A stretch of 64,000 nucleotides of DNA from Mnemiopsis leidyi (GCA_048537945.1 CM108484.1:19009034-19073033); one strand, 5' to 3'. Positions 1,511-37,865 are shown, counted from the first letter of the stretch. Notes: generated by a model not told the origin, from the letters alone. Program-made: numbers and translations.

Positions 1511-1562
1511 ATGTTGACTCTATTCGTCCTGTACATTTTGTGGATTTCTGCCCTCAGTCAAG
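1511..1562 (+). CDS. TGF-beta/activin type I receptor (ALK4/5/7-like), coding exon 1 (signal peptide MLTLFVLYILWISALSQ)
   Basis: ATG at 1511 followed by a hydrophobic signal peptide. Donor CAAG|GTGAGT at 1562/1563 (phase 1). An acceptor-like ttttattcag at 1474-1483 suggests the exon begins at 1484 with an upstream 5'UTR exon. The track's start at 1493 uses TTG; I prefer the ATG. Confidence 0.75.
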
Positions 1563-1827
1563 GTGAGTCTATTTATTTTGGTTCATGGATGTACCATGGA
1601 TTTGTAAAAATTGATCATTTGAATCATATTGCGAAAGTGTTAAAACAAAACTACTTCATTTTATTGCTTATGATAATGAAAAAGCAGTGCACAATATTGC
1701 CAATTATGTGTGCATTTAAACTTTATCGACGCCTCTCTTCTTTTTCCCCTCAAATTCAACCCTGCCAGTAAAATATGGTAAATAAATCTAGATTTCGAAT
1801 TGATTGTCGATCTTCCAATAACTGCAG

Positions 1828-2023
1828 TTACCACACACTCAGAGGACAACACGAGAAAGGATTCTATGAGGATATGTCAGTGCGATACTTGCCAAACCGG
1901 GACTTGTATGATCGACATCTTGAACAACAACACCCGGTGTTTCGTCAAGTTCAGTCTGGATGACGACAACAAGCAGTACACTTACAGGAGCTGCACTAAC
2001 CAAGCCATCCTGGCGTGTAACTC
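1828..2023 (+). CDS. type I receptor exon 2 (ectodomain, Cys-rich three-finger fold)
   Basis: Acceptor ctgcag| at 1826-1827. Translates VTTHSEDNTRKDSMRICQCDTCQTGTCMIDILNNNTRCFVKFSLDDDNKQYTYRSCTNQAILACNS. Donor AACTC|GTGAGTA at 2024 (phase 2). The Cys spacing is typical of the TGF-beta type I receptor ectodomain. Confidence 0.85.
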
Positions 2024-2192
2024 GTGAGTATTTACTTTGCATAAACTGTCATACACATGTTTTCTTACCAAACTTGTACTTAAATATTACTGAAACTTCA
2101 TACTTACTAATACTCTTAGATATGATACACTGCTGGTTAGGTCACGTTAATTTGGAGTAAAGATACCTGAGGCTTAAACTTTTCTCTTTCAG

Positions 2193-2338
2193 GCAAATGA
2201 CGGACCGACCATTCAAAGTGCAATGCTGCAGTGAGAATTACTGTAACAGTGACGACAAGATACCTGACGACCACGTTATATTGTCGGAAATGCAAAGCAA
2301 GTCCATCGACGACAAAATCACCTTCGAAACTGCCGACG
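2193..2338 (+). CDS. type I receptor exon 3 (ectodomain, CCxxxxCN box)
   Basis: Acceptor tttctctttcag| at 2191-2192. Translates SQMTDRPFKVQCCSENYCNSDDKIPDDHVILSEMQSKSIDDKITFETAD. KVQCCSENYCN is the canonical receptor serine/threonine-kinase ectodomain box. The donor is ambiguous: GACG|GTTCGT at 2339 is used here, and an alternative TTAA|GTACGA at 2348 has the same phase and would add GSLN. Confidence 0.7.
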
Positions 2339-3129
2339 GTTCGTTAAGTACGATTTCGAGGTGCACTGCACCGTCTGTAATTCTGATTTTGGTAAAGTAT
2401 TTTCAGAATTGGCAGACAATATTTTTTCGATTTTCTCTCCCTCCCATTCCGCGTCCCTTTAAGAATCTCTATATTCAAGTAGTCTGGATCTAACATCGTT
2501 ATTTAACCTGATTACACTGGCCGCGACCAATATGTATGAGACAATGAAGCTGTAGAAAGAGGATTTTTCTATCAGTAGTAAGGCTGAGAGCTGTCAGTTT
2601 CGTCTCCCTGTCCAAATATGGAATAATCGAGGTGTCTGGTTTTGAAAGTACGCAAGGAAGCCGGCTTTGCTCGTGTAGCAACGTGTAGTCCTCGTGTAAA
2701 TACCTCCCTGTACATCTGTACACACGTGTGTACGTGGGGTGCCTGTGTGTTTGTGTCTCAGGAAGTGTGTGTAAAGTGGGGTAGAAGAGTCGCACAATCA
2801 AATTGTTGTAGAATTAGAGGAGCTGTCACTGGGAGTTAAAAGTGAGGAAGTGACTGGAGATGACTGGTGTGATCCTATCTCGTGACTGGGGATGACTGGA
2901 TCTTAAGATGTGGGAATAAGGTTGTACGGCTTGACGTTCTGGTGTGCGATATGTTCCTCGTAACGCCTGACTGCCGAATTTATCACATATTCTTAAATTT
3001 AATTACAGCTTAAATTGCACTGAATCTTCTTGGCATTCCGGTTTTCATGAAAGTTTTGAAACAGAAACCTATAAACGTAAAATACGCCCTTCCCGAATAA
3101 CAAAATGAAAGCAGTTCTATTTCTTACAG

Positions 3130-3249
3130 ATTTTGACAATAAAGGAACATATTTGGACAACAACAGTTCAACGACTGAAGATGAGCTCGGTCTTATATAC
3201 ATCCTTGTGGGATCTGTAACAGTTCTCTTTGCAATATCTCTATTGCTGG
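3130..3249 (+). CDS. type I receptor exon 4 (juxtamembrane and transmembrane helix)
   Basis: Acceptor ttcttacag| at 3128-3129. Translates (D)FDNKGTYLDNNSSTTEDELGLIYILVGSVTVLFAISLLL. There are N-glycosylation sites and then a roughly 20-residue hydrophobic TM segment. Donor CTGG|GTGAGT at 3250 (phase 1). Confidence 0.85.
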
Positions 3250-3414
3250 GTGAGTTTTCTTTTTGTGTACCTCTATTATCACTGCTATATGTAAGTCGAC
3301 ACAACTTTTCTGCCCAGTAATAAGTACTAAGTGTGAAAGTAGAAAGTATAAGCACTTATATAAAAGTGCTTTACTTACCCTTAATAAAAGTAAAATTGTA
3401 ACACTCCCCCTCAG

Positions 3415-3555
3415 TGTTAGTCTACAAGAGATGTAACTACCCGCAACCCCACAAGGACTACACGCTAACCCCCCACACTGACTACCCCTTTACGGGGGTC
3501 AAGGGTGCTCCCTTCCCTCCTCAGCAACCTGATCTTTCCAGCAGTTTCGGCAGTG
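3415..3555 (+). CDS. type I receptor exon 5 (cytoplasmic juxtamembrane, start of GS box)
   Basis: Acceptor ccccctcag| at 3413-3414. Translates VLVYKRCNYPQPHKDYTLTPHTDYPFTGVKGAPFPPQQPDLSSSFGS, with the KRC stop-transfer directly after the TM helix. Donor AGTG|GTTCGT at 3556 (phase 1). The heptamer GGTTCGT is identical to the candidate exon 3 donor. Confidence 0.7.
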
Positions 3556-3717
3556 GTTCGTACTTTCTCTTTCAGTTTCTACTCCTACTTTATCTTTTAC
3601 TACACATTTTACCTACTTTCCGTTAAGGCGGAAGCACTATGCAACTTTACTTAGGACAGCACTGTGCATCTTATAGAAAGATCTAGAAGATTGAATGTTA
3701 CCATACATGACCGTCAG

Positions 3718-3812
3718 GTTCAGGATACAATAGCGAGAGGAGAATGAACCAGAGAACTATAGCTAGACAGATAACTCTCATTGAGACCATTGGGAAAGGA
3801 AGATTTGGAGAG
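3718..3812 (+). CDS. type I receptor exon 6 (GS box, L-P-like segment, kinase glycine loop)
   Basis: Acceptor ccgtcag| at 3716-3717. Joined to exon 5 it gives SSFGSGSGYNSERRMNQRTIARQITLIETIGKGRFGE. SGSGSG is the GS box, TIARQI matches the ALK5 TIARTI, and GKGRFGEV is the kinase glycine loop. Donor GAG|GTATGT at 3813 (phase 0). A second in-phase AG sits 6 nt downstream at 3722-3723. Confidence 0.8.
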
Positions 3813-4524
3813 GTATGTGATTTGTTGTTTTATCTTTGATCTACTGTTCAGGGGAAAGGTAAGGCTCTGGCCATGACCCTCTGATAACATGTTTAATTTT
3901 CATGCTTCAGTAATTTCTTTACCAGCTGTTGGTGAAAATGTCATGGTGGTTGGTCCCTGTTTGAGACTGATGACATTCCGACTAAATTTAAACTCAATAT
4001 TTGACGTTTCTGGTGGATTTCCCCGTTATAACCTGATAAGAAACCGGATTGTTGTCTGATTTTAAAACTGATGTGGTGTTTCTATAAATAGAACTAGACG
4101 TTTATTGTTGCATAACTTACTTTTAAACATGAGACCTCAATCTAGCTCGATTTTAAAGAGCAGTTGCATTCATATAAAATAACTTTAAGTTTATCTACAA
4201 ATGTGGTCAAATTCTACCCGTATGCCTACTTGCCATTCCATTTAATATTTGCGTCACTCGTCAGGTCCGACCTCTGCTGAATCAAAGATTTCTTAAATGC
4301 CACTTTGTACTTGCCTTTCTAACCTAAAAAACTGCGGCTTTAAACGAAAATTTAGTTCGTCATATGCTCACGACACTGTTTTAGTTAACAGTAAACAGTT
4401 AGCATATCACTGTTAACAGTGCATAGATAACAGTTAACATTTAACAGCGAAGATATTTGTAAATAGTCAACAGTATATAGTTTAAATGTAACAGTTTACA
4501 GTTAACAGTCGATCCCTCACGCAG

Positions 4525-4681
4525 GTACACAGAGGTAGCTTCAGAGGGGACAACGTGGCTGTGAAGATATTCGCGTCACATGACGAGAAGAGCTGGTCAC
4601 GTGAGATGGACATCTACAGGACTGCTCTCATGAGAAACGAGAATATCCTCGGTTTTATCGCTGCCGACAACAAGGACAGAG
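4525..4681 (+). CDS. type I receptor exon 7 (kinase N-lobe)
   Basis: Acceptor cacgcag| at 4523-4524. Translates [52 protein letters not shown], matching the vertebrate [50 protein letters not shown]. Donor AGAG|GTAATG at 4682 (phase 1). Confidence 0.9.
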
Positions 4682-4682
4682 G

Positions 4683-4752
4683 TAATGTTTATAGTACTTT
4701 TATAGTACTTTTATAGTATTTTTGTAGTACTTTTGTAGTACTTTTATTATTT
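4683..4752 (+). repeat. 11-13-bp unit x5 (GTACTTTTATA) starting at the GT of the receptor exon 7 donor
   Basis: G|GTAATGTTTATA GTACTTTTATA GTACTTTTATA GTATTTTTGTA GTACTTTTGTA GTACTTTTATTA. Every unit begins with a donor-like GTA. Confidence 0.8.
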
Positions 4753-5682
4753 TAGTTATCTTTTGCTTTATTGAAAGAAAACACTTTACGCTAATCGCCA
4801 TATCAAAGTGGGCGCGTCTTACCCAAATCAGGCAGCATGCTATCTTTCTTGGTGTATTCGAATTACATTTCACTGTCATTATATGTGTACCAAATGTATG
4901 CTGCCTAAGGTTGACTGACAAAAGTTGACTATGTTTATATGTTATGCTGTATCAATTTGCTAGACCTGTAAACTGTACCAGAAATTGTAATATGATATTC
5001 CCTAACAAAAATGACCCTTGAATAAGTAATATGATAATATGGGTACATACAACTACTCAATGCTCAGTTCCATATTTGTTAGTAACAAAATTCGTGTAGT
5101 ATTTTACTCAGTACACACGTGGCAAGTATTATTGTTTACTATTGAGGACGTTGTAAGAACTCCTTTACTGAGCCGCATGACGTCTTGTTAGTGATCTCGA
5201 TATATTTTGTTTTATTCAGGAAATACCATAGAGTCTGAGTCCATGAATTCCATTTGTCAAATATTAGACAAATAACTGACTGTATTGCGAACAAAATTCA
5301 GTAACCCCTCAAAATACATTGAACGAGATTTGGTTGAATGCGGTGTTGTGATTGGCTGCCAACAAATCACGTGCTATCATAACGTGTTCACACAGTCACG
5401 TGTTCTTATGGGAACCGGGTAAACTCGAGTTCAGTTCGTGTCTGATGTATTGAATGGCTATTGTTTGAAAATAGAGTTAGTTTTCAGTAATGACATTAGT
5501 AATGCTACGGCACGAGAATTAGAGTCAAGTCAGAGAAGTTCTCACACTACCCTGAATTAGGACGTTCTGATGAAACTACACAGGCTGACACCTTTAAACT
5601 ACACCTTACACCTTTAACCACTCAACGTGTATAAGTTTATACTCTTCAGATATAGCCAACCTAGGAGTATATTTCCACTCTT

Positions 5683-6003
5683 AACAGGTAAAGTGTCTAA
5701 ACCCAGATAATCCCAGGTAAAGTGTCTAAACCTAGATAATCCCAGAAAAGTGTCTAAACCCAGATAATCCCAGGTAAAGTATCTAAACCCCGCTATTCTC
5801 AGCTAAAGTATCTAAACCCAGATAATCCCAGGTAAAGTATCTAAACCCCGCTGTCCCAGGTAAAGTGTCTAAACCCCGCTATCCCCAGGTAAAGTATCTA
5901 AACGCAGATAATCCCAGGTAAATTGTCTAAACCCAGATAATCCCAGCTAAAGTATCTACACCCCGATATCCCCAGGTAAAGTATCTAAACCCCGCTATCC
6001 CAG
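5683..6003 (+). repeat. 30-bp tandem array, about 10 units (CCCAGATAATCCCAGGTAAAGTGTCTAAAC), ending exactly at the receptor exon 8 acceptor
   Basis: Each unit contains TCCCAG|GTAAAGT. The last unit, ...CGCTATCCCAG|GTAACTGGACCGAAC, is the real acceptor plus the exon start at 6003/6004. Confidence 0.9.
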
Positions 6004-6207
6004 GTAACTGGACCGAACTCTGGCTGATAACGGAGTACCACGAGCTCGGCTCTCTCTACGACTTTCTCTCTCAAAACACGCTAAACAACTACGACATGTT
6101 GATATTCGCGCTGTCCATCGCTAACGGTCTGACATTCCTGCACAGCGAGATCAGGGGAACAAGCGGAACTTTGAACGCTAACGGAAACAACTACCACTGT
6201 ACTTCAG
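6004..6207 (+). CDS. type I receptor exon 8 (L45 loop and kinase hinge, with an unusual C-terminal extension)
   Basis: Acceptor ctatcccag| at 6002-6003. Translates GNWTELWLITEYHELGSLYDFLSQNTLNNYDMLIFALSIANGLTFLHSEIRGTSGTLNANGNNYHCTS. The L45 loop [14 protein letters not shown] matches the ALK4/5/7 (Smad2/3-type) ADNKDNGTWTQLWL. Donor TTCAG|GTGTGTG at 6208 (phase 1) is the only GT giving an open join to exon 9. This implies a 14-aa insertion (TLNANGNNYHCTSG) relative to the vertebrate [12 protein letters not shown]. Confidence 0.7.
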
Positions 6208-8051
6208 GTGTGTGTGTTTACTTTCTAGATAACACAGGATTAGGTGTAAAGTGTCAACATGTGTATTTGAAGAGAAAAGTTGAAGAGAAAATTTGGATTT
6301 GTGATGGGAAATTTCCGCGAGTTCCTGATTATTGCTACACAAGTTTGTCGTGTTGTGGCTTTACAATTTAAAATTTTTAGCTCAGCCCTCAAAAATGACC
6401 TACCTTATCCAAGTTACTTGTTATTTCTCAATATAAACTAATTTATATAATTGTAACATACCCGTACAAAGTTGTAAAAGAGTAACAAGTTCAGTTTCAC
6501 ATGTGCGCATTCTTCGTGTACATTGAACATTGCTACAAGTTACAATTCAGTAAATTGTACACCATAATATACTATCTAGCTACCTACAAGTTACAATCCA
6601 GTAAATTGTACACCATATTATCTAGCTACCTACCCAAGACACAAACACTCCTACCGCCTCTCTGAATATATCAATTTAAATGTGTATTTGTCTGTTAGGA
6701 TCGCTTTGTAGTACCGCATTGCACTTGCTTCGCTCGATAGATACGGAGTCAGTATGGGAACTCTTCCAGAGTATTCTTTTATTAATTGGATAATTGGTCC
6801 AGGGATCGTACCGGTATTCCATGGATTTACAATGCACCGCACCATACCACTTTACTATTCCTCTAAACGTGTAAACGTCAGGTTTATCATCAAGATTGGA
6901 GATATATATAGTGAATACATGTTTAGCGCTTACTAGAGGAAAGATGTCGTATATTTGTTAAGGCCGTGTGATAGCTATCTACTATTGTGAATAATAAGAC
7001 AAACAATTTCCATAGCTAGGGCCTGGGATACACGAATACGTGTCTAAGTTACGTTACACATTACTGAGAATCTCAAATTTTATTGTGACCAAATATACGG
7101 ATCTAACGTCACATTTCAGTGATTTAAGTTAACCTGACTTCATGAACTCTAATCACATGATATTGATAAACCCAATTATCCGGTATCCCATAACTTTAAC
7201 GTATCTCCGTTGACAGGATTGACGCTAGTTTGTGGGGCCAAAATTCTCTTTTTCTCTTTTTCTCTACGTACCCCATAACACACTACGGATCTACCCCCAG
7301 TCACTGACTCTCGTGCCCAATTAAACAGTAAAAGTATTATGTTGATATTGAATTTAGTTTGCAGGTTGAAGATAATATCTAGTTCTCCTATAACCGCCTA
7401 CAGTTGATATTGAATGGGATCCTCCTAACTCCTCTCTAATCCGCGTCGCTACAATTAATTCCCAAACAGTATTGTCCCGTCTCACAGCTCAATGAGTCTG
7501 ACGCTCCTGCCCCATCTTTATAACTTCCATGTGATTAGTGACACAGTCAATGTCTCAAAGTAACGATGCGGGACAAGGACAATGCTGCGTTTAGCCGTCA
7601 GTTTGTGTTCGGGACGTGTCTAATTGTGGGGCTCACTGTTACAAGTTTCTAATTAGTGAGAGTTTGTGTCACGGTTATTAGTGGTGGTTAGCAACTGTAG
7701 ATGTTTCCATTGTGAAGGGGAGAGCAACATTGAGATTTGGGAGGAGAGCGACAGTGTCGAGATAGTCAGAACTGTACTGTAGCTGCTATTCATCTAAAGG
7801 ACTGAGTCATGTGTAGACATGTTATTGGTAGAGGAATGGTGGTTGAATTGTCGATATACAGACTTGTCAGATGCCATCCTGGCTAGAATTACACATCTGC
7901 CACTCTAACTCGACTATATCGGCCGGATCCGGCCGTAATTCTCTCTCAAATTTATAATACTCAGTCCTCCCCGCTTGTAATGATCTCTACTTAGTCCGGC
8001 CTACCCCGATTAGCCCAGTAATCAGTCCCGCCAATGCCCGGTCACCCTCTA

Positions 8052-8135
8052 GTCACGTGCATTCAGCTGACCAATCAGCGCTGCTCGAGTTGTGTCACGT
8101 GCTCTTTGATAGCCAATCAGTGCTCGTCACGCCAG
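8052..8135. promoter_or_regulatory. promoter-like composite module: 2 E-boxes (CACGTG) plus 2 CCAAT boxes (GACCAATCAG, AGCCAATCAG)
   Basis: GTCACGTGCATTCAGCTGACCAATCAGCGCTGCTCGAGTTGTGTCACGTGCTCTTTGATAGCCAATCAGTGCTCGTCACGCC lies in receptor intron 8, about 120 bp downstream of the perfect 16-bp palindrome CGGCCGGATCCGGCCG at 7920-7935. Similar E-box plus CCAATCA modules occur at 5348-5405, 15724-15790 and 15901-15940. Confidence 0.3.
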
Positions 8136-9045
8136 GTCACGCCATCATTACTGACCTATTAGATTATTGCTTTTAATTCATGAGGCTTTCAAAGCATTTT
8201 CTCTAGCCTAATTAGTCTGGAAATCTGTAGTCTGTACAAAGGGATGTGCTGGCATTTCGGTCTGGGATCCCTGTATGGGGGAAGATGTGAAGGAGGAGAA
8301 GGGGAAGAAGAAGAAGAAGAAAGGAAAGGGGAGCAGATCAAATAGCAGATGAAGAGTGGTTAGGGGAAGGGAGAAGTAGAAGGAAGGGGTGAAGGTTGTA
8401 TGTTTACAGCCTAGTTTCTATGGAGAACACAGCTACAGGGTGCGGGTTGGTCAGCAGGAGCGATAGCAGACTAGCTGAGTAGTACACTAGTGATCCTAGC
8501 TTGTTAGAACTCATAGCTTCAGACAGTTAGAGAAGTTTATATTCGCTTTGTCATTCGACCATTCAGAATAAGTATATGCATTCTGAAGCATGCATTATAT
8601 TAACTTCTTAGAGTGCACATTCTTAAAATGCCAACATTTCAAGACTCGAGATTCTATAAATTCTAAAATTTTTATCTCGAAACCTATCATGCGAGAGTGG
8701 CTTGGTTTTAACGTTACTCTGGAAGAGTTAATCCTGCTGGGTGAAGTAGCCAATGATCATGTGGGGAGACACTGAACAGTACTTAATTTCAAGGCAGGTG
8801 TGGTGTCAGACAGTTAACGTCCAGATTATTAACATAAACAGTACTTAATTAACATAATTCTGTCCACCCAGCTCCATCTTACTATGGGTTATTGTTATCG
8901 GTAATTCCGCTATCGGAATATTGGCTAGACCGCCAACTCCGGCACACCTGGACATATTATAGTCTACAGTTCCATAGTACTAGTACTATAATATTTATAG
9001 TAGTCTAACCGTACCAGTCTACGCCTAGAAGTCAGATAAAGTAAA

Positions 9046-9932
9046 GAACATGTTACAGAGACCATGTTACAGGGACCAAGTTACAGAGACCACGTTACAG
9101 AGACCATGTTACAGAGACCATGTTACAGAGAACATGTTACTGATACCATGTTACATAGACCATGTTGTAGAGACCATGTTACAGAGACCATGTTACAGAG
9201 AACATGTTACAGAGACCATGTTACAGAGACCATGTTACAGAGACCATGTTACAGAGACTAGTTACAGAGGCCATGTTACAGAGACCATGTTACAGAGACC
9301 ATGTTACAGAGACCACGTTACAGAGACCATGCTACAGGGACCATGTTACAGAGACCATGTTACAGGGACCATGTTACAGAGACCATGTTACAGAGACCAT
9401 GTTACAGAGACCATGTGTTACAGAGACCATGTTACAGAGACCATGTTACAGAGACCATGTTACAGAGACCATGTTACAGAGACCATGTTGTAGAGACCAT
9501 GTTGTAGAGACCATGTTACAGAGACCATGTTACAGAGACCATGTTACAGAGACCATGTTACTGAGACCATGTTACAGAGACCACGTTACAGAGACCATGT
9601 TACAGAGACCATGTTACAGAGACCAAGTTACAGAGACCATGTTACAGAGACCATGTTACAGAGACCATGTTACAGAGACCATGTTACAGAGACCATGTTA
9701 CAGAGACCATGTTACAGAGACCATGTTACAGAGACCATGTTACAGAAACCATGTTACGGAGACCATGTTACAGAGACCATGTTACAGAGACCATGTTACA
9801 GAGACCATGTTACAGAGATCATGTTACAGAGACCATGTTACAGGGACCATGTTGTAGAGACCATGTTAAAGAGACCATGTTACAGAGACCATGTTACAGA
9901 GATCAAGTTACAGAGACCATGTTACAGGGACC
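9046..9932. repeat. 14-bp minisatellite (GACCATGTTACAGA), about 63 units, in receptor intron 8
   Basis: Direct periodicity. Every unit carries an acceptor-like TGTTACAG motif. The ORFs listed here by the track are repeat artefacts. Confidence 0.95.
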
Positions 9933-10975
9933 AATAGACTACATTTTATTGCATTTCTAATCGTCACGTGTTTTGCATCATGAATATTGAATATGTACAG
10001 CTTGTTGTTACAAACTGTTTAGCGTGTCCTTGTTTAAAGTGTAAAGTACAATGCCATGTGGATGTATAATGTATAATGTACTGTAACTTATATAAAGTCA
10101 TTACACTACACGCCCCCTCCTTGTGTTACAGTAGATCTAGCTCAACATTAGGCCCCCAATGACTAGGGAGCTAAAAGAGCTTAAAGAGCCTAAGTAGACA
10201 TGAAGAATGGGGAAATGTGGCTCGCTAGACTGTAGTTTTGTAATTATCTAGAAGAAACTTTTGCGGCGTCGTAACATGGGTTTCTTGGTGGTGCAGAAAA
10301 AAGTAACTCAAGAGACATTAGTATCAGTCGTAGTATTGGTTACTTTGCAGTTAAGAGTTTGCATTGATATTGATTTACAGGATAATTTAAGACAAAGTAG
10401 TGGAAGCATTGAATTAAAAGAACCATGGTTACCATGGTAACTATGGTAGCGATAGTTACCATTCCAGCTTACAATAAGTAACTAAGCGAGACTTGTTCTG
10501 GCTGAAGAACTGTTACAACTTACAGTCTAATACAGTCTAATTAGGATTTCGCGAACGTTTGTCATAAGTAACACTATCTCTCGTAGTTTCGAAGTTACTA
10601 ACGACAAAATACTGTCTAAAGCAACCGTGACGACTATTGAGTTTCAGATTATTCAACATTAGCTTCCCTCATTATCAACTTACAGGGCTACCCGCTCTTT
10701 CTCAGATGCTTTATTTACATGAGGGTTGTAAATTAACCGCTGTATGCCTATCCGATTTGAATGAAAGAATATTGACCAAGGAAATTTTGACAATAGATAT
10801 TATTGTGGCAGTGTGCTTTAATATGTTACGTATTTAATGCGCTATACGTTCAATTTGGTTATTGTGTACATTGGTCACAGCAGCTAAACCTTTATTCTTT
10901 GTAAGCACACATCCCAATGAAAACTAATCACTTATTTCCTTTATATCAGTTCCCTTTCTAACACATCTCTTGCAG

Positions 10976-11135
10976 GATACAAACCAGCGATAGCGCACCG
11001 GGACGTGAAGAGTAAGAACATTCTAGTGAAGAGTAACATGGAGTGTTGTATCAACGACCTGGGTCTGGCAGTCCGACACGACAGTAAAAACGACGAGGTG
11101 GAGCGACCCCCGGACCACAGAGTCGGCACCAAGAG
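10976..11135 (+). CDS. type I receptor exon 9 (catalytic loop and activation segment)
   Basis: Acceptor tctcttgcag| at 10974-10975. Translates (G)[52 protein letters not shown](R). HRDxKSKN and DLGLAVRH are diagnostic of TGF-beta-family receptor kinases. Donor AAGAG|GTGGGG at 11136 (phase 2). Confidence 0.9.
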
Positions 11136-12907
11136 GTGGGGTTTTCTTTTACACCGTCACATGAGTCACTGTTATGTTTACACAGAGTCGGCACCAAGAG
11201 GTGGGGTTTTCTACACGAGTTTTTGTTTCTTTTACACCGTCACATGAGTCACTGTTTTGTTGACACAGAGTCGGCACCAAGAGGTGGGGTTTTCTACTCG
11301 AGTTTTTGTTTCTTTTACACCGTCACATGAGTCACTGTTATGTTTACACAGAGTCGGCACCAAGAGGTGGGGTTTTCTACACGAGTTTTTGTTACTTTTA
11401 CACCGTCACATGAGTCACTGTTATGTTTACACAGAGTCGGCACCAAGAGGTGGGGTTTTGTACAGGAGTTTTTGTTTCTTTTACACCGTCACATGAGTCA
11501 CTGTTATGTTTACACAGAGTCGGCACCAAGAGGTGGGGTTTTCTACACGAGTTTTTGTTTCTTTTACACCGTCACATGAGTCACTGTTTTGTACACAGAG
11601 TCGGCACCAAGAGGTGGGGTTTTCTACACGAGTTTTTGTTTCTTTTACACCGTCACATGAGTCACTGTTATGTTTACACAGAGTCGGCACCAAGAGGTGG
11701 GGTTTTCTACACGAGTTTTTGTTACTTTTACACCGTCACATGAGTCACTGTTATGTTTACACAGAGTCGGCACCAAGAGGTGGGGTTTTCTACAGGAGTT
11801 TTTGTTTCTTTTACACCGTCACATGAGTCACTGTTATGTTTACACAGAGTCGGCACCAAGAGGTGGGGTTTTGTACAGGAGTTTTTGTCTCTTTTACACC
11901 GTCACATGAGTCACTGTTATGTTTACACAGAGTCAGCACCAAGAGGTGGGGTTTTGTACAGGAGTTTTTGTCTCTTTTACACCGTCACATGAGTCACTGT
12001 TATGTTTACACAGAGTCGGCACCAAGAGGTGGGGTTTTGTACAGGAGTTTTTGTTTCTTTTACACCGTCACATGAGTCACTGTTATGTTTACACAGAGTC
12101 GGCAACAAGAGGTGGGGTTTTGTACAGGAGTTTTTGTTTCTTTTACACCGTCACATGAGTCACAGTTATGTTTACACAGAGTCGGCACCAAGAGGTGGGG
12201 TTTTCTACACGAGTTTTTGTTTCTTTTACACCGTCACATGAGTCACTGTTATGTTTACACAGAGTCGGCACCAAGAGGTGGGGTTTACTTTTACACCGTC
12301 ACATGAGTCACTGTTATGTTTACACAGAGTCGGCACCAAGAGGTGGGGTTTTCTACAGGAGTTTTTGTTACTTTTACACCGTCACATGAGTCACTGTTTT
12401 GTTTACACAGAGTCGGCACCAAGAGGTGGGGTTTTCTACACGAGTTTTTGTTTCTTTTACACCGTCACATGAGTCACTGTTATGTTTACACAGAGTCGGC
12501 ACCAAGAGGTGGGGTTTTCTACACGAGTTTTTGTTTCTTTTACACCGTCACATGAGTCACTGTTATGTTTACACAGAGTCGGCACCAAGAGGTGGGGTTT
12601 TCTACACGAGTTTTTGTTTCTTTTACACCGTCACATGAGTCACTGTTATGTTTACACAGAGTCGGCACCAAGAGGTGGGGTTTTCTACACGAGTTTTTGT
12701 TTCTTTTACACTGTCACATGAGTCACTGTTATGTTTACACAGAGTCAGCACCAAGAGGTGGGGTTTTCTACACGAGTTTTTGTTTCTTTCACACCGTCAC
12801 ATGAGTCACTGTTATGTTTACACAGAGTCGGCACCAAGTGGTGGGGTTTTCTACACGAGTTTTTGTTTCTTTTACACCGTCACATGAGTCACTGTTATGT
12901 TTACACA
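11117..12907 (+). repeat. 83-bp tandem array, about 21 units; each unit contains the last 20 nt of receptor exon 9 plus its 5' splice site
   Basis: Unit CACAGAGTCGGCACCAAGAG|GTGGGGTTTTCTACACGAGTTTTTGTTTCTTTTACACCGTCACATGAGTCACTGTTATGTTTA. The first unit is the genuine exon/intron junction at 11135/11136. Confidence 0.95.
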
Positions 12908-14756
12908 TGAGTTTTTGTCATGTTTTTCGTTATACACGATACGAGTTCTTGTCATTTTTAACGTCTGCTTAACTCTAAATCGCAATCCACCATCTCTCAT
13001 TAAACTTAAACATTTAAACTGGAGCCTACTGAGGAATCCCTCTAAACTCAACACGGCTTGTCTAGATCTCGCCGTATCTTCAACTAAAGTTAAAGTAAAA
13101 CAACAAGAAGCCTCGCTAGAAACTCCACTCTGTCGTGTAGTATTATAGACGGCTGTTTTCTCGCTTTAAAACCACTAGACTTTCTCTCTACGTGAGGTGT
13201 CCTGTCTAGACGTCGGGCTGCTGCACTTATCTGTCTCCGTCCTAAGTCAGCTGGTCTCCTTTTGTAGTGTGACGTCATCTCGTGTGGTGTGACGTCATCT
13301 CGTGTGGTGTCATGGCAACTTGTATAGTGTGAACAACACCACGAACATGCTTTACGCCGGGATCTCACGATTTTCGAATTAACTCGGATCTGGGTTACTT
13401 TTTTTACAATTCTTTATTTAAACAGGAAGATATAATTCCTGTAATAATTCGCTATAAGTCAGGACTGGCCGGGACATAGTTATCGTAAAAACGCACGTCA
13501 GACCGCCTTGGTATTATGTATTAAGTCCAGTAATAATATTCAAATATTCACGGCAGAGTGTGACCGGTGAGAACACAAATTAAATGAAAGAAGGCCGCTA
13601 AGTCCGGAGGGAGATATGTAGACCGATAAAGCGGGGGTGTTCCCCCCACAACCTCTCACTCAGCTATCATCCTGACCAGCTTCCTTGTCACAGCTAACCT
13701 CCTCCCTTCTACAGTCAGTCTAGCTGCTAGTTCTCTGGGTGTAATTTAGTGGGGTCTGGTCAGTGGGGTCTGGGGTTAATGTGACACCACTGTAGACGTA
13801 ACACCACTTCCTGTGTTGTGAAATGACGTAACACATGTACAGGGGGACGCTAATTGGTAACGTAGGTTCCAATTTTCAGCTACAACCCAACCAGACGTAG
13901 AAAAAGTGGTATCGTGTTTCACGGTTCTCATTGGCCACATTTCTCACTCACCCTCTTTTCTCCTCCCCCCATTGGTGGTATTGGTCGTGCTCTCTCTCCC
14001 CATTGGTCAGATTATCTCGTGTTTCACTCCTTATTGGTTACCCACCCATCTAGACCTCCTTGACAGAATTTCCTTTAAATTAACTTTAAACAGGTCAGTC
14101 TACACAGTGCTTCAGGTGAGAATTCGGTGTCTCTAGCGTTTCAACACAGTGTCTATTATAAGAATAGGATGAGATCGATGTAGCCGTGGTGGAATTAGTT
14201 GTTTTGTCTTCGCGCGACTAAACAACGCGTGAATGGAGGAACTAAAGTTAACAGCTGTGTGCTGTGTAGTAACCAACAGAAATCCGACCTACTCAAACAC
14301 CCAGGAATATTGTATTTACTTATTTACTACTGAACTTTAAACCTTGAGCGTGAGTCTCACTTTCAGCTTTGGAGTGTTGCCAATGTGAACTTATTTTAAA
14401 AGTGCCTTACTCAACTAGCGAAATATCCGGGTTAATTTGGCCTGGTCTTAGTTGTATAAAAGTAGAAACACTGAGTAGAAAACGGTTACAAGACTTGTTT
14501 ACCTTCTGTACATTGGTCATTCCTGTTGGAACCAAACACCTAGGCTCACTTCACACTTCACCTCTAGCTGACGAAGATTAGTACACATGTTTCTTGAAAG
14601 CTTCTGTAACAACAAACTCATATCTATTTATGTCTATTAACCCCCCTCGAAAGACAAACACCTGTGTATAAGACTGTTTATGGATCAGAAATAAACAAAT
14701 TACGAAAACAATGTAATATCAATTTGTCACATCTTCTAATCTATTTCGATTTCCAC

Positions 14757-14851
14757 CTCTTTTACTCAATAGTGATTGGCTGATGAATCTTTTACTCAAT
14801 TCTGATTGGGTGATGAATATTTTACTCAATTCTGATTGGCTTATTACTCCC
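14757..14851 (+). repeat. 30-bp unit x3 (TTTTACTCAATTCTGATTGGCTGATGAATCT) abutting the receptor exon 10 acceptor
   Basis: Three tandem copies end at ...CTGATTGGCTTATTACTCCCAG|GTACATGG. Each carries a CCAAT-box reverse complement (ATTGG). Confidence 0.85.
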
Positions 14852-14853
14852 AG

Positions 14854-14978
14854 GTACATGGCTCCAGAAGTGCTAGACGACACATTAAACCCCCGCTCCT
14901 TTGACAGCTACTGTAAAGCTGACATCTACTCATTTGGACTTGTTCTATGGGAGATCGCTTCCAGAACTGTCAACGCAA
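14854..14978 (+). CDS. type I receptor exon 10 (P+1 loop YMAPEVLDD, kinase C-lobe)
   Basis: Acceptor ttactcccag| at 14852-14853. Translates (R)[41 protein letters not shown]. Donor GCAA|GTACGT at 14979 (phase 1). Confidence 0.9.
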
Positions 14979-16515
14979 GTACGTTCTTCTTCACTCCTAA
15001 TCAGTAATCTACTGCTTCTACATTTTTAGAGATGTATAATTCTTCTTTATAAACTAGAGCTATATTTCGTACTTTGTACTTGTAGAGCATCGTGCTTTGA
15101 TGTAATTTAATTGACGATGGAATTCAATTGAAGCTGAAATTCTTTCTTTTTCTGTACACGCAGCTTTATGCACATGTCACGTGTCAGTGTGTGTGTGTGC
15201 CAGGCAGATGACACAACAGATAGCGATACACTAGTATGTGTTAACAGTTACTCTCACAGCCTTGGTCCTTCCTTAACAGACTTATGGTATTTCATCATTG
15301 CTATAACGCCCATTACCTGGCCAAGGAGTTGCTGCCCCTGAATTTTATATTGTCCGATGATTTAATAAAAAGCCCAGACCTGCCATAGTTTAGACCGTAT
15401 TTTCTGGTCCGCTGTCCCCCCTGTTCATATTGGATGATCCTTAGCATCTCGTTCTTTGTGCTCATTGGTCAAGCCGTGCCACGAGGAGAAAATCTTACGT
15501 TTTCATTGGTCGGTTTTGAGAATATTCCTCCTTCAGACTAGAGAGGAAACCTGTTCCTAAAGTTCTAAGGATTTGTAGCATTGAGTATTGAAAGATAAGG
15601 AAAGAGCTGAGGTTACCCATATAGAAAACAGTGAGGTTTATTTGCCGGAATTAGAAGTCTTGGCTTCCCAATGCTCGGGGCCTGTAAATGGTGTTAATAA
15701 GCTAAGTCGCTTACTCCAGACGAACACGTGACCTTTACAAGCCAATCACCGAGCTCCTATACACTGAACCAACCAATCACCGAGCGTTAATTCTACCTCT
15801 GATACCTCCGCTGGAGTTCAGCAAAAATACCAACCTGAAATGCACACTATTTAAATGTATCCTTATAGAAGTCGTCTTGCATCACGACTGGGTTTCTGGC
15901 ATCACGTGACTTGATCCTGGCATTGTGATTGGTCGGTTGCTTTTAGCGTTTCTCTACTCGATTATACGCGTTTATACCCGTTTTGGTCACCTGTTCGAGC
16001 AAACGAATTTATCGGGACACTAAAATTTAATATGGGTTTTAATAAAATACATGGGTTTTAATAAGATGTATGTGCCTAGTTATAATAAAGAGAGATGGTG
16101 CACAATATGTTAATATAGAGGTAACTGTTTTAAGGTACGTAGTGCTCTGCAGAGACCATCAAATAGTTTTCATGCAATCACATAGTATACAACGTTTCAT
16201 TAACATATCATGTAATCCTAGCAATCCTACAAGAAGTATGTGGGTCTTGTCACGATACATTAGAGTTCATCAGTACAGATGTCACTGTAACACTTCTATT
16301 TCTGTAACGATACTGATTTCGGAACATTTTCAATATACCAATCCTTGATGATAATTATTCTTCAGAAATTGAGAACACTTATCCGCCGATTTTAAAGAGT
16401 AACTTACTCCGGTCGTTACCATGGATCACAGATTTAGTTATATAAAAGCAACAGCACCTTCACTTTGATCGGTAGAAAGTGAAAAATGAGAAGTTTTCTT
16501 CGTCTTAATGGCTAC

Positions 16516-16833
16516 ATCTATCAATGCATCCATGAACACTCGCAGTAAGAGTAACTAGAGTACTAATCCCGACACTTACACTATTAATGCATCCATGAAC
16601 ACTCGCAGTAAGAGTAACTAGAGTACTAATCCCGACACTTACACTATTAATGCATCCATGAACACTCGCAGTAAGAGTAACTAGAGTACTAATCCCGACA
16701 CTTACACTATTAATGCATCCATGAACACTCGCAGTAAGAGTAACTAGAGTACTAATCCCGACACTTACACTATTAATGCATCCATGAACACTCGCAGTAA
16801 GAGTAACTAGAGTACTAATCCCGACACTTACAG
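16516..16833 (+). repeat. 59-bp tandem array, 5.3 units, terminating exactly at the AG of the receptor exon 11 acceptor
   Basis: Unit CTATTAATGCATCCATGAACACTCGCAGTAAGAGTAACTAGAGTACTAATCCCGACACTTACA. Internal unit boundaries read ...CTTACA|C, and the final one reads ...CTTACAG|GTGCTCC. Confidence 0.9.
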
Positions 16834-16970
16834 GTGCTCCAATAGTAGACGAGTACAGACAGCCGTACCACGAGTACGTAGCTCCAGATCCCTCCGTCGA
16901 GGAGATGAGGAAAGTTGTCGTTGTAGACAGATGTCGTCCTGCTATCTCCAGACATTGGAACAACGATGAG
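16834..16970 (+). CDS. type I receptor exon 11 (kinase C-lobe)
   Basis: Acceptor cacttacag| at 16832-16833. Translates (S)[45 protein letters not shown], matching the vertebrate [45 protein letters not shown]. Donor GAG|GTTTGT at 16971 (phase 0). Confidence 0.9.
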
Positions 16971-17875
16971 GTTTGTACTGAGAAAGTGTTGTCGTTGTTG
17001 TTGCCGTTGTTGTGATTAGTGTGATTTGGGATAAACGGGATTTGTTTTGCAATTTCTTTGACTCTTTGAGATATTCTCTCGTTTAAGATTGGTCTGCTTA
17101 TTTATTTGTAGATAAAATGACGTGCCATTCACGACATGCCATTCATGTTTAATTAGTGACATGGTTTACAGATAGCTTTAGTAATCAGACCTATTAGAGA
17201 GTACTTCAGCAATTCAGACACATAATTGGACATGACTAACTTATCTTGATAAGTTGGGATCTTTTCATCTTTCGCTCACGTGGCACAATTTTTCATTTGT
17301 CCTTAGTCTGCCACTTGTGGCAATCAGAAAATATAAGTCTTAACTTTTCTTGTATGACATACAGATAAACAGACAGATAAACAGACAGATAAACAGACAC
17401 GCAAACATTTTCTTTTTGTCAAAATCTTCAACCATGCACAATGAGCAAATGCATTGTTTGAGTGTTGTCTATTTGAAATGCTATTGTGTCTAAAAACCTA
17501 GACTGACTTAAGTCATACTCTGTCAGCTGTAATCCTATCATCCGCTATGGCACGTTTTTGAATGACAAAAAGGGAGTGAGCCCAACCAATCCACCAGTCT
17601 GTAACTTGAGCTCCGTTTTTTCGCGTCCCTGCTGCCATGTGACAGTGTCACATTGGTGTGACACACAACACGACACCATGTGGCATCCTAATTTGTGGCA
17701 CTAATTTGCCTCAACCTTGCACACAACACGACCCCCACTACTGCTTTTCTATCCAAGGTGCATGACAACAGTTGAGCCCGGTTTTATTGCTTACTACTAA
17801 CTTATAAACATTACTAGACTTCCTACGGCTTATGTAGTGGGATTTCTAAACACTTTTAAAGTGCTTCACAAGTCC

Positions 17876-18094
<219 letters not shown>

Positions 18095-19006
18095 GCTATA
18101 CACACTCGTAAACCTGTACATATGTATCAAATATGGGTACGGATATCAGAGACAAAGTGAGTAGACCGACAAAGCCACATCAATGATGTGTGTGCATGTT
18201 GTCTGAGACGGCGGTAAATGGCAGGCATTAGGGAGGGTGGCAGTGAAGTCATTGTCTGGCCGGGTCCAGCCCACAGCCATCAGCGACCCTATAATTGCAC
18301 TCAGGGCCTTGACCGGGGATTAGTCACGGTCGAAGCGTAACAATATGCGCCATGGTTTGTGCGTAAAACCAGTCGCTCGATTCGTCCTCAGTTTAGACAT
18401 TAAGAAGCTCCTCTAATTTACTCAGATGGTGTCTTGTGCGACTGTCTATTTGAGAGACAAAAGAGTGTTATGTTTGGAACGCGCCGAAACACAGCTGCAT
18501 TGATGATGAGGAATTTTGCGCAGAAATTGCCGCGCGTTGCGCGCAATATTGTGCAGCAGACACGAGCCAGACTTGCAAATTTCAAGTTTCCTTGATGCGT
18601 CAGACAACCTATTACTCATTATTTCTACCCTTCTTCTTCACACAGTGTTCCTCACAATTTCCTACTAATGGCGACAATTCTCTTCTGATTAGTCCAAGAA
18701 ACTAGTTAAATCTGACATATAGGACGATTGTGATCCTTGTTTCATTTTAACTAACCCTAAAGACGAGAAAGTGTACAATAAAGGTCCTGTGCTCCGTGGA
18801 CATTTCACGGAAATTGTTTAACGACGTTAAGGGCTTGGACGTCTGCCAGGCAGTGTCACATGTCAGTCATGTGACCTTTATGTACATTCCCCAATTAAAC
18901 TTGTACTACGTGTAAAATGTACACTTATTTACCTTAGTGCTATACAGGGTGGTCAGTTTTTCTCTCATTAAACAGTTCTCTAAATTCTTATCGTAATATA
19001 TTTCAG

Positions 19007-19138
19007 TATTTGAGGCTGATGGAGAAGTTGGTTCAAGAATGTTGGTACCATGACCCAGGAGCCAGACTCACTGCGCTACGCGTCAAGAAATCTTTAGTGG
19101 CATTCAGAGACTCCCTTAATAACGAAGTCAAAGTATAG
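19007..19138 (+). CDS. type I receptor terminal coding exon, with TAG stop at 19136-19138
   Basis: Acceptor atatttcag| at 19005-19006. Translates [43 protein letters not shown], matching the vertebrate [33 protein letters not shown]. An AATAAA lies about 90 bp downstream, around 19224. Confidence 0.9.
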
Positions 19139-37200: not shown

Positions 37201-37865
37201 ACTGACTACTTAGTTACCTAGCTCTACCTCACTGCTCTAGCTCTATTCTGTTATCATGTACTAACTACTTAGTTAGTTAGCTCTACCTCACTGCTCTAGC
37301 TCTATTCTGTTATCATGTACTAACTACTTAGTTAGCCAGCTCTACCTCACTGCTCTAGCTCTATTCTGTTTCATGTACTGACTACTTTGTTACCTAGCTC
37401 TACCTCACTGCTCTAGCTCTATTCTGTTATCATGTACTGACTACTTAGTTAGCTAGCTCTACCTCACTGCTCTAGCTCTATTCTGTTGTCATGTACTGAC
37501 TACTTAGTTAGCTAGCTCTACCTCACTGCTCTAGCTCTATTCTGTTGTCATGTACTGACTACTTAGTTACCTAGCTCTACCTCACTGCTCTAGTTCTATT
37601 CTGTTGTCATGTACTGACTACTTCGTTACCTAGCTCTACCTCACTGCTCTAGCTATATTCTATTATCATGTACTAACTACTTCGTTAGCTAGCTCTACCT
37701 CACTGCTCTAGCTCTATTCTGTTGTCATGTACTGACTACTTAGTTAGCTAGCTCTACCTCACTGCTCTAGCTCTATTCTGTTGTCATGTACTGACTACTT
37801 AGTTAGCTAGCTCTACCTCACTGCTCTAGCTCTATTCTGTTGTCATGTACTGACTACTTAGTTAC
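31201..37865. repeat. 60-bp minisatellite, about 110 units (AGTTACCTAGCTCTACCTCACTGCTCTAGCTCTATTCTGTTGTCATGTACTGACTACTT) inside an MVP intron
   Basis: Near-identical units with variants such as G/A in TGTTG/ATCATG and TTACC/TTAGC. The array starts 10 bp from the acceptor of MVP exon 4. Confidence 0.95.

What the first reader, a model, noticed from the sequence alone, without database searches (positions are those of the whole stretch)
6150..6215. Receptor exon 8 must read through 14 extra codons (TLNANGNNYHCTSG) before the first usable GT; the extension itself looks like a branch point plus acceptor
The vertebrate ALK4/5/7 sequence reads [12 protein letters not shown]. Here GTSG is followed by 42 nt with no GT dinucleotide before CAG|GTGTGTG, forcing a 14-aa insertion just N-terminal to the catalytic loop. 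The inserted DNA contains CTAAC (the branch-point consensus) 25 nt upstream of ...TACTTCAG. This may be a former intron 3' end captured into the exon (exonisation), or a lineage-specific surface-loop insertion, or a non-canonical intron that I cannot see.
Basis: inference. Interest (0 to 1): 0.55.

Follow-up and report, generated by a model that had tools for sequence, protein, structure and literature searches.

The report
Ctenophore TGF-beta receptor kinase-loop insertion
[quoted passage not shown] It is spliced at a normal GT donor at the ancestral intron position, so it is not a hidden intron or a captured branch point.

Summary
The window is Mnemiopsis leidyi. [quoted passage not shown]

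The 42 nt at 6166-6207 are in the mature mRNA:
- The RACE-derived GenBank protein AEP16397.1 contains [27 protein letters not shown].
- All five NCBI isoforms contain it.
- Intron-free transcript contigs from three other ctenophore taxa contain the same or a similar insert.

Between Mnemiopsis and two of these taxa, synonymous sites are saturated. Yet the 18-codon loop shows 9 synonymous and 0 non-synonymous changes, which indicates strong protein-level constraint.

CTAAC and TACTTCAG lie in codons and vary at synonymous positions in the orthologues, so the "branch point plus acceptor" look is coincidence.

The phase-1 intron inside the Gly codon before KPAIAHRD is shared with Lingula and Helicoverpa. 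The donor is therefore ancestral. The terminal TSG probably corresponds to vertebrate TQG, which places the insert inside the loop.

The origin of the insert remains open; a splice-junction duplication or shift is possible. Interest is low.

The parts
1511..19138 (+). MlTgfRIa (TGF-beta type I receptor) coding region. It has 12 exons: 1511-1562, 1843(or 1828)-2023, 2193-2338, 3130-3249, 3415-3555, 3718-3812, 4525-4681, 6004-6207, 10976-11135, 14854-14978, 16834-16970, 19007-19138.
   Evidence: Exact threading of NCBI proteins P0121 and P0001 onto the window, with all introns GT-AG. 100% identity to Mnemiopsis leidyi KAL5258003.1. Identified as Ml_TypeIa of Pang et al. 2011.
6004..6207 (+). Exon 8 (204 nt, phase 1 at both ends). 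It encodes (G)NWTELWLITEYHELGSLYDFLSQNTLNNYDMLIFALSIANGLTFLHSEIRGTSGTLNANGNNYHCTS(G).
6166..6207 (+). With the gap placed to the right, the inserted residues are roughly GTSGTLNANGNNYH(C), and the terminal TSG corresponds to canonical TQG. Together with GTSG and Tyr this is the expanded E6 loop (residues 349-367 of P0121).
   Evidence: Present in cDNA-derived AEP16397.1 and all isoforms. Identical in P0002 and P0003; 2 residues shorter and diverged in P0004. The 18-codon E6 loop (GTSG plus these 14 codons) shows 9 synonymous and 0 non-synonymous differences. A 15-residue gap against TbRI 1py5. AF2 models it as coil with pLDDT<50 after helix 326-348.
6208..6213 (+). Canonical donor GTGTGT of intron 8. 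It splits a Gly codon in phase 1.
   Evidence: Same position and phase as Lingula ACA CAA G|GTGAGA and Helicoverpa AAA G|GCAAGT.
6199..6200 (+). It is in phase but would create T|GA, a stop.
6178..6182 (+). CTAAC, the 'branch-point-like' motif. It is really GCT AAC (Ala-Asn).
   Evidence: Not conserved at the nucleotide level: GCT AAT in L001-L004, GCA AAC in L005, absent in L006. A second CTAAC lies at 6121.
6208..10975 (+). Intron 8 (4768 nt), at the ancestral phase-1 position before (Y)KPAIAHRD.
10976..11135 (+). Exon 9. GA completes the Gly codon. TAC (10978-10980) is an extra Tyr that belongs to the loop expansion. KPAIAHRD and the catalytic loop follow.
   Evidence: Tyr is present in all four ctenophore clusters and absent from the canonical receptors examined.

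Best explanation
The 42 nt at 6166-6207 are constitutive coding sequence of exon 8 of the Mnemiopsis leidyi TGF-beta type I receptor MlTgfRIa.

Exon 8 is spliced at an ordinary CAG|GTGTGT donor. That donor occupies the ancestral phase-1 intron position inside the Gly codon preceding KPAIAHRD.

The extra residues (14 before the intron plus one Tyr after it) lengthen the E6 loop. This loop is a family-specific insertion between helix alphaE and strand beta6/the catalytic loop of TGF-beta/BMP receptor kinases. It grows from 4 residues (GTQG) to 19 (GTSGTLNANGNNYHCTSGY).

The expansion arose in the TgfRIa lineage of ctenophores before the sampled taxa diverged, and it is maintained by purifying selection on the protein.

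Inferred, not shown: the longer loop acts as a surface element next to the GS loop and catalytic segment. There it would tune autoinhibition by the GS region and/or contacts between intracellular domains. In human ALK2 this is the region where G328 and P330 substitutions change activity or dimerisation.
For: In the mRNA:
- The GenBank protein AEP16397.1 comes from the RACE-PCR clones of Pang et al. 2011. It carries the full insert and differs from the genome-encoded protein at 5 other residues, so it is an independent sequence.
- All five NCBI isoforms keep the insert.
- Six Logan contigs of 2.0-2.9 kb from six sequencing runs carry uninterrupted 543-552-codon ORFs, whereas the Mnemiopsis gene has 11 introns. 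They are therefore spliced transcripts of three other ctenophore taxa (96, 92 and 74% identity).
- They read GTSGTLNANGNNYHCTSGY (two taxa) or GGTLQGYSASYHTTSGY (one taxon).

Selection:
- Mnemiopsis against L001 and L005 gives pS 0.75-0.77 (saturated) and pN 0.02-0.06 over 335 codons.
- In the 18 loop codons there are 9 synonymous and 0 non-synonymous differences in each comparison.

Splicing:
- All 11 introns are GT-AG and the model reproduces the annotated protein exactly.
- No alternative in-frame GT, GC or AT donor exists without creating a stop, except a poor GC at 6163.

Ancestral intron:
- Lingula has ACA CAA G|gtgaga...ag|GG AAA CCT.
- Helicoverpa has AAA G|gcaagt...ag|GC AAG CCG.

Location:
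- The best solved relatives are TbRI 1py5 and 1b6c (E about 3e-114), with one 15-residue gap between GTQG and KPAIAHRD.
- The AF2 model has helix 326-348 followed by low-confidence coil 349-378.
- The E6 loop is named as a family-defining insertion. ALK2 G328 in it abuts the GS loop (PMC3481300), and P330 affects dimerisation of the intracellular domain (PMC10212922).
Against: - No functional data exist for the loop, and the AF2 model gives no confident conformation (pLDDT<50), so the regulatory role is inference by position only.
- The loop is more variable than the rest of the kinase at the deepest comparison (pN 0.29 against 0.17 versus P0004). Part of it may therefore be only loosely constrained.
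- The species behind the Logan runs were not identified.
- That the contigs are transcripts is inferred from their intron-free ORFs.
- Whether the earliest-branching ctenophores have the insert is unknown.
Confidence: 0.92

Rival explanations
1. Origin by exonisation at the splice junction. The ancestral exon ended ...GTSG|gt. A tandem duplication spanning the exon end and donor, a donor shift, or a cassette exon later fused to exon 8 then moved the working donor 42 nt downstream. This would leave a second copy of TSG at the new exon end. It concerns origin only and is compatible with the best explanation for present-day function.
For: - The insert is bracketed by TSG...TSG in Mnemiopsis and lobate-like taxa.
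- The same gene today carries tandem arrays that copy splice junctions. There are 22 copies of GGCACCAAGAG|GTGGGG (exon 9 end plus donor) at 11125-12846, and 8 copies of CCCAG|GTAA ending in the real acceptor of exon 8.
- In Helicoverpa the homologous intron holds a 60-nt phase 1-1 cassette exon that inserts 20 residues into the same loop.
- Independent inserts at exactly this junction occur in mites, midges and bivalves.
Against: - No nucleotide trace can survive, because synonymous sites are saturated even among the close taxa.
- P0004 lacks the first TS (EIRG--GTL...), so the TSG duplication may be secondary.
- One extra codon (Tyr) lies downstream of the intron, which a pure donor shift does not explain.
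- Clustering of inserts here can equally reflect tolerance of the loop tip.
Confidence: 0.25
2. Plain in-exon insertion, by replication slippage or small duplications within the loop-coding DNA, upstream of an unchanged donor. The terminal TSG| is the original TQG| equivalent.
For: - The donor position and phase are identical to Lingula and Helicoverpa.
- The terminal T/C-TSG-Y is the part conserved in all four ctenophore clusters, whereas the first TS is missing in P0004.
- ALK2 G328, the homologous last Gly, tolerates no side chain (PMC3481300). This fits retention of the original TSG next to KP.
Against: - No significant similarity exists between the insert and any other part of the protein. 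TLNNYD against TLNANGNNYH gives shuffle P of 0.35-0.77 across the three taxa tested.
- This reading does not explain the extra Tyr in exon 9.
- It does not explain the recurrence of inserts exactly at this intron in other phyla.
Confidence: 0.45
3. The 42 nt are removed, at least in a minor isoform, by a non-canonical or alternative splice. Both a canonical [13 protein letters not shown] receptor and the long-loop receptor would then be made.
For: - A donor after 6165 would stay in frame (G|GA gives Gly).
- The supplementary alignment of Pang et al. shows Ml_TypeIa as [18 protein letters not shown], which at first sight lacks 11 residues.
Against: - The bases after 6165 are GA, not GT, GC or AT.
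- The Pang alignment was hand-trimmed for phylogenetics, as shown by other edited rows and by Tyr also being missing. No splice could produce TLNA|KP.
- The deposited protein from the same study has the full insert.
- None of 5 annotated isoforms and none of 6 transcript contigs lacks it.
- Strong amino-acid constraint on the insert.
Confidence: 0.03

Closest known systems
Human TGF-beta receptor type I / ALK5 kinase (PDB 1py5, 1b6c, 1ias) and its E6 loop
   Same: Closest solved relatives (E about 3e-114, about 55-58% identity). Shared features: a GS motif followed by QRTIAR, an ALK4/5/7-type L45 loop (ADNKDxGxWT), KPAIAHRD and the catalytic loop, and a DLG motif. The E6 loop lies in the same place, between alphaE and beta6.
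   Different: The E6 loop is 19 residues instead of 4 (GTQG). The GS region lacks the Leu-Pro of GLPLLVQRT (SGSGYNSERRMNQRT) and is 3 residues longer. The Pfam GS-motif and Activin_recp models are not matched at their cut-offs in Mnemiopsis.
Human ALK2 (ACVR1) E6 loop: G328 and P330
   Same: Homologous residues are kept: the final Gly of TSG and the Pro of (Y)KP. The literature places them against the buried GS loop and next to the catalytic segment. G328R/W/E activate the kinase, and P330S raises dimerisation of the intracellular domain (PMC3481300, PMC10212922).
   Different: Those are point substitutions in a 4-residue loop. Here 15 residues are added immediately N-terminal to, and one between, these positions. 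No functional test exists.
Helicoverpa armigera TGF-beta receptor type-1 (babo-like): 60-nt cassette exon in the homologous intron
   Same: Same phase-1 intron inside the Gly codon before KPAIAHRD. Same loop expanded (GTKG-QPGVLFSNTDQTECWRNIG-GKP, +20 residues). The insert keeps phase 1-1 and ends in a split Gly.
   Different: It is encoded by a separate small exon flanked by introns (upstream donor GC), not by contiguous exon sequence. The sequence is unrelated, so the event was independent.
Other length variants of the loop: MlTgfRIc and Nematostella 178197 (+3), type II receptors, mites (+8), chironomid midges (+15, Cys-rich), bivalves (+3)
   Same: Insertions at the same alignment position. 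This shows that the E6 loop tip tolerates extra residues across the family.
   Different: The sequences are unrelated and mostly shorter. Several come from gene predictions only. Many short database 'proteins' with inserts here are read-through of short introns, which are artefacts.

Membership tests
[quoted passage not shown] | Ser/Thr kinase domain most similar to type I receptors, with an HRD catalytic loop and a DLG motif | tested here: met
   phmmer against the PDB gives TbRI at 2.8e-114, ahead of ALK2/ALK6 and type II receptors. Foldseek top hits are ALK2 and TbRI. Pfam Pkinase scores 1e-30.
[quoted passage not shown] | GS motif (SGSGSG) immediately N-terminal to the kinase | tested here: inconclusive
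   The sequence shows SSSFGSGSG...QRTIARQ. The Pfam TGF_beta_GS model is not matched in Mnemiopsis at E<=1. It is matched in the 74% orthologue P0004 (23.3 bits against a cut-off of 21.3). The Leu-Pro of GLPLLV is absent.
[quoted passage not shown] | Cys-rich three-finger ectodomain plus a single transmembrane helix | tested here: inconclusive
   Pfam Activin_recp scores 11.9 bits against a cut-off of 20.9. The CCxxxxCN box (CCSENYCN) and a hydrophobic helix at 143-174 are visible.
[quoted passage not shown] | ALK4/5/7-type L45 loop (ADNKDNGTWTQ) rather than the BMP type (ADIKGTGSWTQ) | tested here: met
   [11 protein letters not shown] compared with the alignment rows of Pang et al..
[quoted passage not shown] | Canonical short E6 loop, G-T-x-G directly before KPAIAHRD | tested here: not met
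   19 residues instead of 4. 101 of the 122 first-search proteins that matched the loop pattern have the canonical length. This is the variant feature, not a reason to exclude the gene from the family.
Exonised intron sequence / recent splice-site shift | Orthologues without the segment whose intron still holds the homologous DNA, or isoforms with and without it | tested here: not met
   All four ctenophore clusters, the cDNA protein and all 5 isoforms contain it. No orthologue lacking it was found in two database searches.
Exonised intron sequence / recent splice-site shift | Relaxed or absent protein-level constraint on the new segment | tested here: not met
   0 non-synonymous against 9 synonymous differences in 18 codons, at saturated dS, in two comparisons.
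Non-canonical (non GT-AG) intron | Mature transcript lacks the segment | tested here: not met
   The cDNA-derived AEP16397.1 and the transcript contigs keep it. No GC or AT donor lies after 6165.
Functional branch point plus acceptor (3' splice signals) | Nucleotide-level conservation of CTAAC and the polypyrimidine-AG independent of coding | tested here: not met
   CTAAC changes to CTAAT or CAAAC, and TACTTCAG to CACCTCAG, at synonymous positions. Both are absent in L006.

The most novel reading that the evidence does not exclude
The ctenophore TgfRIa kinase has a remodelled autoinhibitory surface, with two parts that evolved together. One is the 15-residue E6-loop expansion, Ser/Thr/Tyr-rich at both ends (GTSGT...CTSGY). 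The other is the derived GS region, which has lost the FKBP12-binding Leu-Pro and gained 2-3 residues. These two elements pack against each other in TbRI and ALK2. The two length changes go together in the two lineages seen: E6 +15 with GS +3, and E6 +13 with GS +2. In addition, the expansion may have arisen by duplication or shift of the exon-8 donor junction. That process is still visible as junction-copy tandem arrays in this gene, and it has a parallel in a cassette exon in the same intron in moths.
Probability: 0.15. Interest if true: 0.45.

Novelty: new variant of a known kind. Interest (0 to 1): 0.2.

Why it matters
MlTgfRIa (ML082117a) is the ctenophore receptor closest to ALK4/5/7. 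It is the presumed target of SB431542 and A83-01 in work on comb-row patterning and on the ctenophore blastoporal organizer (PMC3169577, PMC13391361).

Three practical consequences follow from knowing that its kinase carries a conserved 15-residue E6-loop expansion and a GS region without the Leu-Pro motif:
- Homology models and inhibitor docking need to account for both features.
- Constitutively active or dominant-negative constructs designed by analogy with vertebrate receptors need to account for them too.
- Phylogenetic alignments are affected; the published one trimmed the insert.

For genome annotation the result is reassuring. The gene model is right and no exotic splicing is needed. 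The wider point is modest: the phase-1 intron in the E6 loop is a recurrent site of lineage-specific insertions in this receptor family.

Tried and rejected
1. Internal duplication. The insert TLNANGNNYH looks like TLNNYD 25 codons upstream, and CGCTAACGG occurs twice in the exon. Local alignment of the insert against the rest of the protein is no better than shuffled inserts (P 0.35-0.77 in three taxa). Rejected.

2. Alternative donors. I enumerated every in-phase exon end from 6150 to 6213. Only 6207 has a GT without creating a stop. GT at 6199 gives TGA, and GC at 6163 (GCGGAA) is a poor GC donor that no transcript uses.

3. Structure. AF2 on a 78-sequence alignment gave mean pLDDT 65.9, with the loop below 50. 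It only shows 'loop after alphaE', no conformation, and I could not measure contacts with the GS region.

4. Species of the Logan runs (ERR6349594, ERR6349589, ERR6349604, ERR6349644, SRR9648488, SRR33514628). No paper in the library cites them, so the taxa remain unnamed.

5. Gene structures of Branchiostoma (P0028), Tetranychus (P0006) and Helicoverpa isoform X2 (P0015). These were not on record. I used Lingula (P0115) and Helicoverpa X1 (P0017) instead.

6. Second homologue search, with a 116-residue profile around the loop. It returned mostly short fragments. Many apparent 'inserts' are read-through of short introns at this same junction. That is useful only as indirect evidence that the intron is widespread. 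One fragment (P0241) is a Mnemiopsis-type exon 8 read into a different intron sequence.

7. The apparent 11-residue shortfall in the Pang et al. alignment ([18 protein letters not shown]). This is explained by manual trimming, not by a transcript.

Full report
**What is there**

The window is Mnemiopsis leidyi genomic DNA. A 335-residue translation assembled from seven exons is 100% identical to NCBI protein KAL5258003.1. The annotated 549- and 554-residue proteins thread exactly onto twelve exons between 1511 and 19138 on the + strand, and every intron is GT-AG.

It ends ...GGA ACA AGC GGA ACT TTG AAC GCT AAC GGA AAC AAC TAC CAC TGT ACT TCA G|GTGTGT. Exon 9 begins at 10976 with GA TAC AAA CCA GCG..., giving ...[30 protein letters not shown].

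The gene is MlTgfRIa of Pang et al. 2011, labelled Ml_TypeIa in their supplementary alignment. It is gene model ML082117a in later work.

**Checking the observation**

One statement is wrong in detail. The 42 nt do contain a GT, at 6199-6200 in the Cys codon. It is in phase, but joining T to the GA of exon 9 makes TGA, so it cannot be used.

The expansion relative to the canonical GTQG-KP is 15 residues. One extra Tyr codon lies at the start of exon 9.

The splice-signal look is not above chance:
- CTAAC occurs 0.95 times per kb on this strand.
- It occurs a second time at 6121 in the same exon, inside SIANG.
- CAG before GT is the normal exon side of a donor.

**Is the segment in the mRNA?**

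Yes, on three lines of evidence.

1. Pang et al. isolated the pathway genes by RACE PCR and deposited the verified sequences. Their protein AEP16397.1 sits in the same 90% cluster. It contains the full [27 protein letters not shown] and differs from the genome-encoded protein at five other residues, so it is an independent sequence.

2. All five isoforms in the NCBI annotation keep the insert.

3. Three further protein clusters (96, 92 and 74% identical) come from six Logan contigs of 2.0-2.9 kb. These contigs carry uninterrupted ORFs of 543-552 codons with flanking UTR. Since the Mnemiopsis gene has eleven introns over 17.6 kb, they are spliced transcripts of other ctenophores. Two taxa have the identical insert. 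The most distant has EIRGGTLQGYSASYHTTSGYKP, two residues shorter.

The shortened row in the Pang alignment ([18 protein letters not shown]) comes from hand-trimming for phylogenetics. No splice could produce it, and the deposited protein is complete.

**Selection**

Between Mnemiopsis and the 96% and 92% taxa, synonymous sites are saturated (pS 0.75-0.77), while pN is 0.02-0.06 over 335 codons. In the 18 loop codons each comparison shows 9 synonymous and 0 non-synonymous differences.

GCT AAC becomes GCT AAT or GCA AAC, and T ACT TCA G becomes C ACC TCA G. The sequence is therefore constrained as protein, not as a splicing signal.

Against the 74% taxon the loop is more diverged than the rest (pN 0.29 against 0.17). 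It still keeps its length class and the frame G..GTL......YH.TSGY.

**Where the intron belongs**

- In Lingula the orthologous exon ends ACA CAA G|GTGAGA and the next starts GG AAA CCT.
- In Helicoverpa it ends ACT AAA G|GCAAGT and the next constitutive exon starts GC AAG CCG.

The phase-1 intron inside the Gly codon before KPAIAHRD is thus shared by a ctenophore, a brachiopod and a moth, and the Mnemiopsis donor sits at that ancestral position.

Read this way, the exon-terminal ACT TCA G (TSG) is the counterpart of ACA CAA G (TQG), and the extra residues lie upstream of it. This is supported by P0004, which lacks the first TS but keeps TTSGY. 'The exon must read on to the first usable GT' is therefore an effect of placing the alignment gap to the left.

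**What the segment is in the protein**

The nearest solved structures are TbRI 1py5 and 1b6c (E about 3e-114). They align with a single 15-residue gap between GTQG and KPAIAHRD.

The AF2 model has helix alphaE at 326-348 followed by low-confidence coil at 349-378. Foldseek returns ALK2 and TbRI kinases.

This is the E6 loop, listed in the ALK2 and BMPR2 structure papers as one of the insertions that define the receptor family:
- In ALK2, G328 (the last Gly of GTQG) lies against the buried GS loop and is a site of activating FOP mutations.
- In ALK2, P330 (the Pro of KP) influences dimerisation of the intracellular domains.

My functional statement is an inference from this position and from the strength of selection: a surface extension that tunes GS-region autoinhibition or intracellular-domain contacts. 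Nothing here tests it.

**Comparison within the family**

- MlTgfRIb has the canonical length. MlTgfRIc and one Nematostella receptor have +3. Type II receptors vary here.
- Among the first-search proteins that matched the loop pattern (122 of 125 held), 101 have the canonical loop.
- Independent inserts occur at the same point in mites (+8), chironomid midges (+15, Cys-rich), bivalves (+3) and Lepidoptera (+20).
- The Helicoverpa insert is a separate 60-nt phase 1-1 cassette exon inside the homologous intron.
- Many short database entries with 'inserts' here are read-through of short introns and should be ignored.

**Origin**

This remains open.

An origin at the junction is plausible. It could be a duplication spanning the exon end and donor, a donor shift, or a fused cassette. 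Three observations favour it:
- the TSG...TSG bracket;
- the moth cassette exon;
- this gene's own introns, which carry tandem arrays copying its splice junctions.

A plain in-exon insertion fits the conserved terminal TSG and the unchanged donor equally well or better.

Nucleotide evidence is unobtainable because synonymous sites are saturated. The internal-duplication idea (TLNNYD) failed a shuffle test.

**Verdict**

- The puzzle is resolved as ordinary splicing of a lineage-specific, conserved loop expansion in a known gene.
- The sequence has been public since 2011. The paper that described the gene does not mention the insert; the word 'insertion' occurs 0 times in its main text.
- I rate it a new variant of a known kind, of low general interest and of some practical use to people modelling or manipulating ctenophore TGF-beta receptors.

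Noticed in passing
window 11125-12912 (intron 9): An 83-nt tandem array of about 21 units. Each unit contains the last 20 nt of exon 9 (CACAGAGTCGGCACCAAGAG, coding HRVGTKR) plus its donor GTGGGG. There are 22 exact or 1-mismatch copies of GGCACCAAGAG|GTGGGG, and the first is the real junction. That makes 21 apparently equivalent decoy donors downstream of the real one.
   Followed up: partly
window 5685-6007 (intron 7, up to the exon 8 acceptor): A 29-nt tandem array of 11 units. Each unit has CCCAG|GTAA(AGT), which looks like both an acceptor and a donor. The last unit is the real acceptor of exon 8 (cccag|GTAACTGG). There are 8 exact CCCAGGTAA in 300 nt, against 0.25 expected in the whole window.
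   Followed up: partly
window 16513-16832; 14758-14841; 4688-4747: More tandem arrays abut splice sites of the same gene. A 63-nt unit x5 (99% identical) ends 2 nt before the exon 11 acceptor region. A 30-nt unit x2.8 lies just before the exon 10 acceptor. An 11-nt unit x5.5 starts 6 nt after the exon 7 donor.
   Followed up: no
window 4681/6004 (intron 7), compared with L007 and L008: Intron 7 is in phase 1 like its Lingula and Helicoverpa counterpart, but lies two codons (6 nt) further 3' in the protein alignment. Mnemiopsis has NKDR-G|NWT; Lingula and Helicoverpa have NK-D|NGTWT. This is an apparent 6-nt intron slide, next to the acceptor-copy array.
   Followed up: partly
window 3718-3760 (exon 6) and end of exon 5: The GS region reads SSSFGSGSGYNSERRMNQRTIAR instead of SGSGSGLPLLVQRTIAR. 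The Leu-Pro (the FKBP12 contact in TbRI, from established knowledge) is absent, and the segment is 3 residues longer. Pfam TGF_beta_GS is not matched in Mnemiopsis, but is matched in the 74% orthologue (SGSGYGNRQLVQRTIAR).
   Followed up: partly
window 14979 onward (intron 10): Two annotated NCBI isoforms (P0122 of 469 aa and P0124 of 513 aa) read on past the exon 10 donor (…[13 protein letters not shown]…). This gives truncated or frameshifted C-lobes. They are probably intron-retention products.
   Followed up: no
window 31210-37864: A 59-nt satellite of 113 copies at 96% identity. It accounts for the strong GC and AT skew (about -0.33) seen at 32-38 kb.
   Followed up: no
window 50504-53032 and 56809-58855: Two diverged arrays of one ~54-nt repeat family (about 70-75% matches) lie in opposite orientation, flanking about 3.8 kb.
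   Followed up: no
window 9045-9933 (intron 8): A 14-nt minisatellite AGACCATGTTACAG of 63 copies inside the intron that follows the flagged exon.
   Followed up: no
L008 5815-7465 (Helicoverpa armigera TGF-beta receptor type-1): The homologous intron uses a GC donor (AAAG|GCAAGT). It contains a 60-nt phase 1-1 cassette exon (about 6660-6719) encoding QPGVLFSNTDQTECWRNIG, which is inserted into the same E6 loop.
   Followed up: partly
P0241 (ENA fragment, 94 aa): A metagenome or assembly fragment has an exon 8 identical to Mnemiopsis. Its read-through translations of both flanking introns differ from the window (…CTSG-TCTTRYTTHVL). This suggests a divergent haplotype or a sibling lineage with the same exon.
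   Followed up: no
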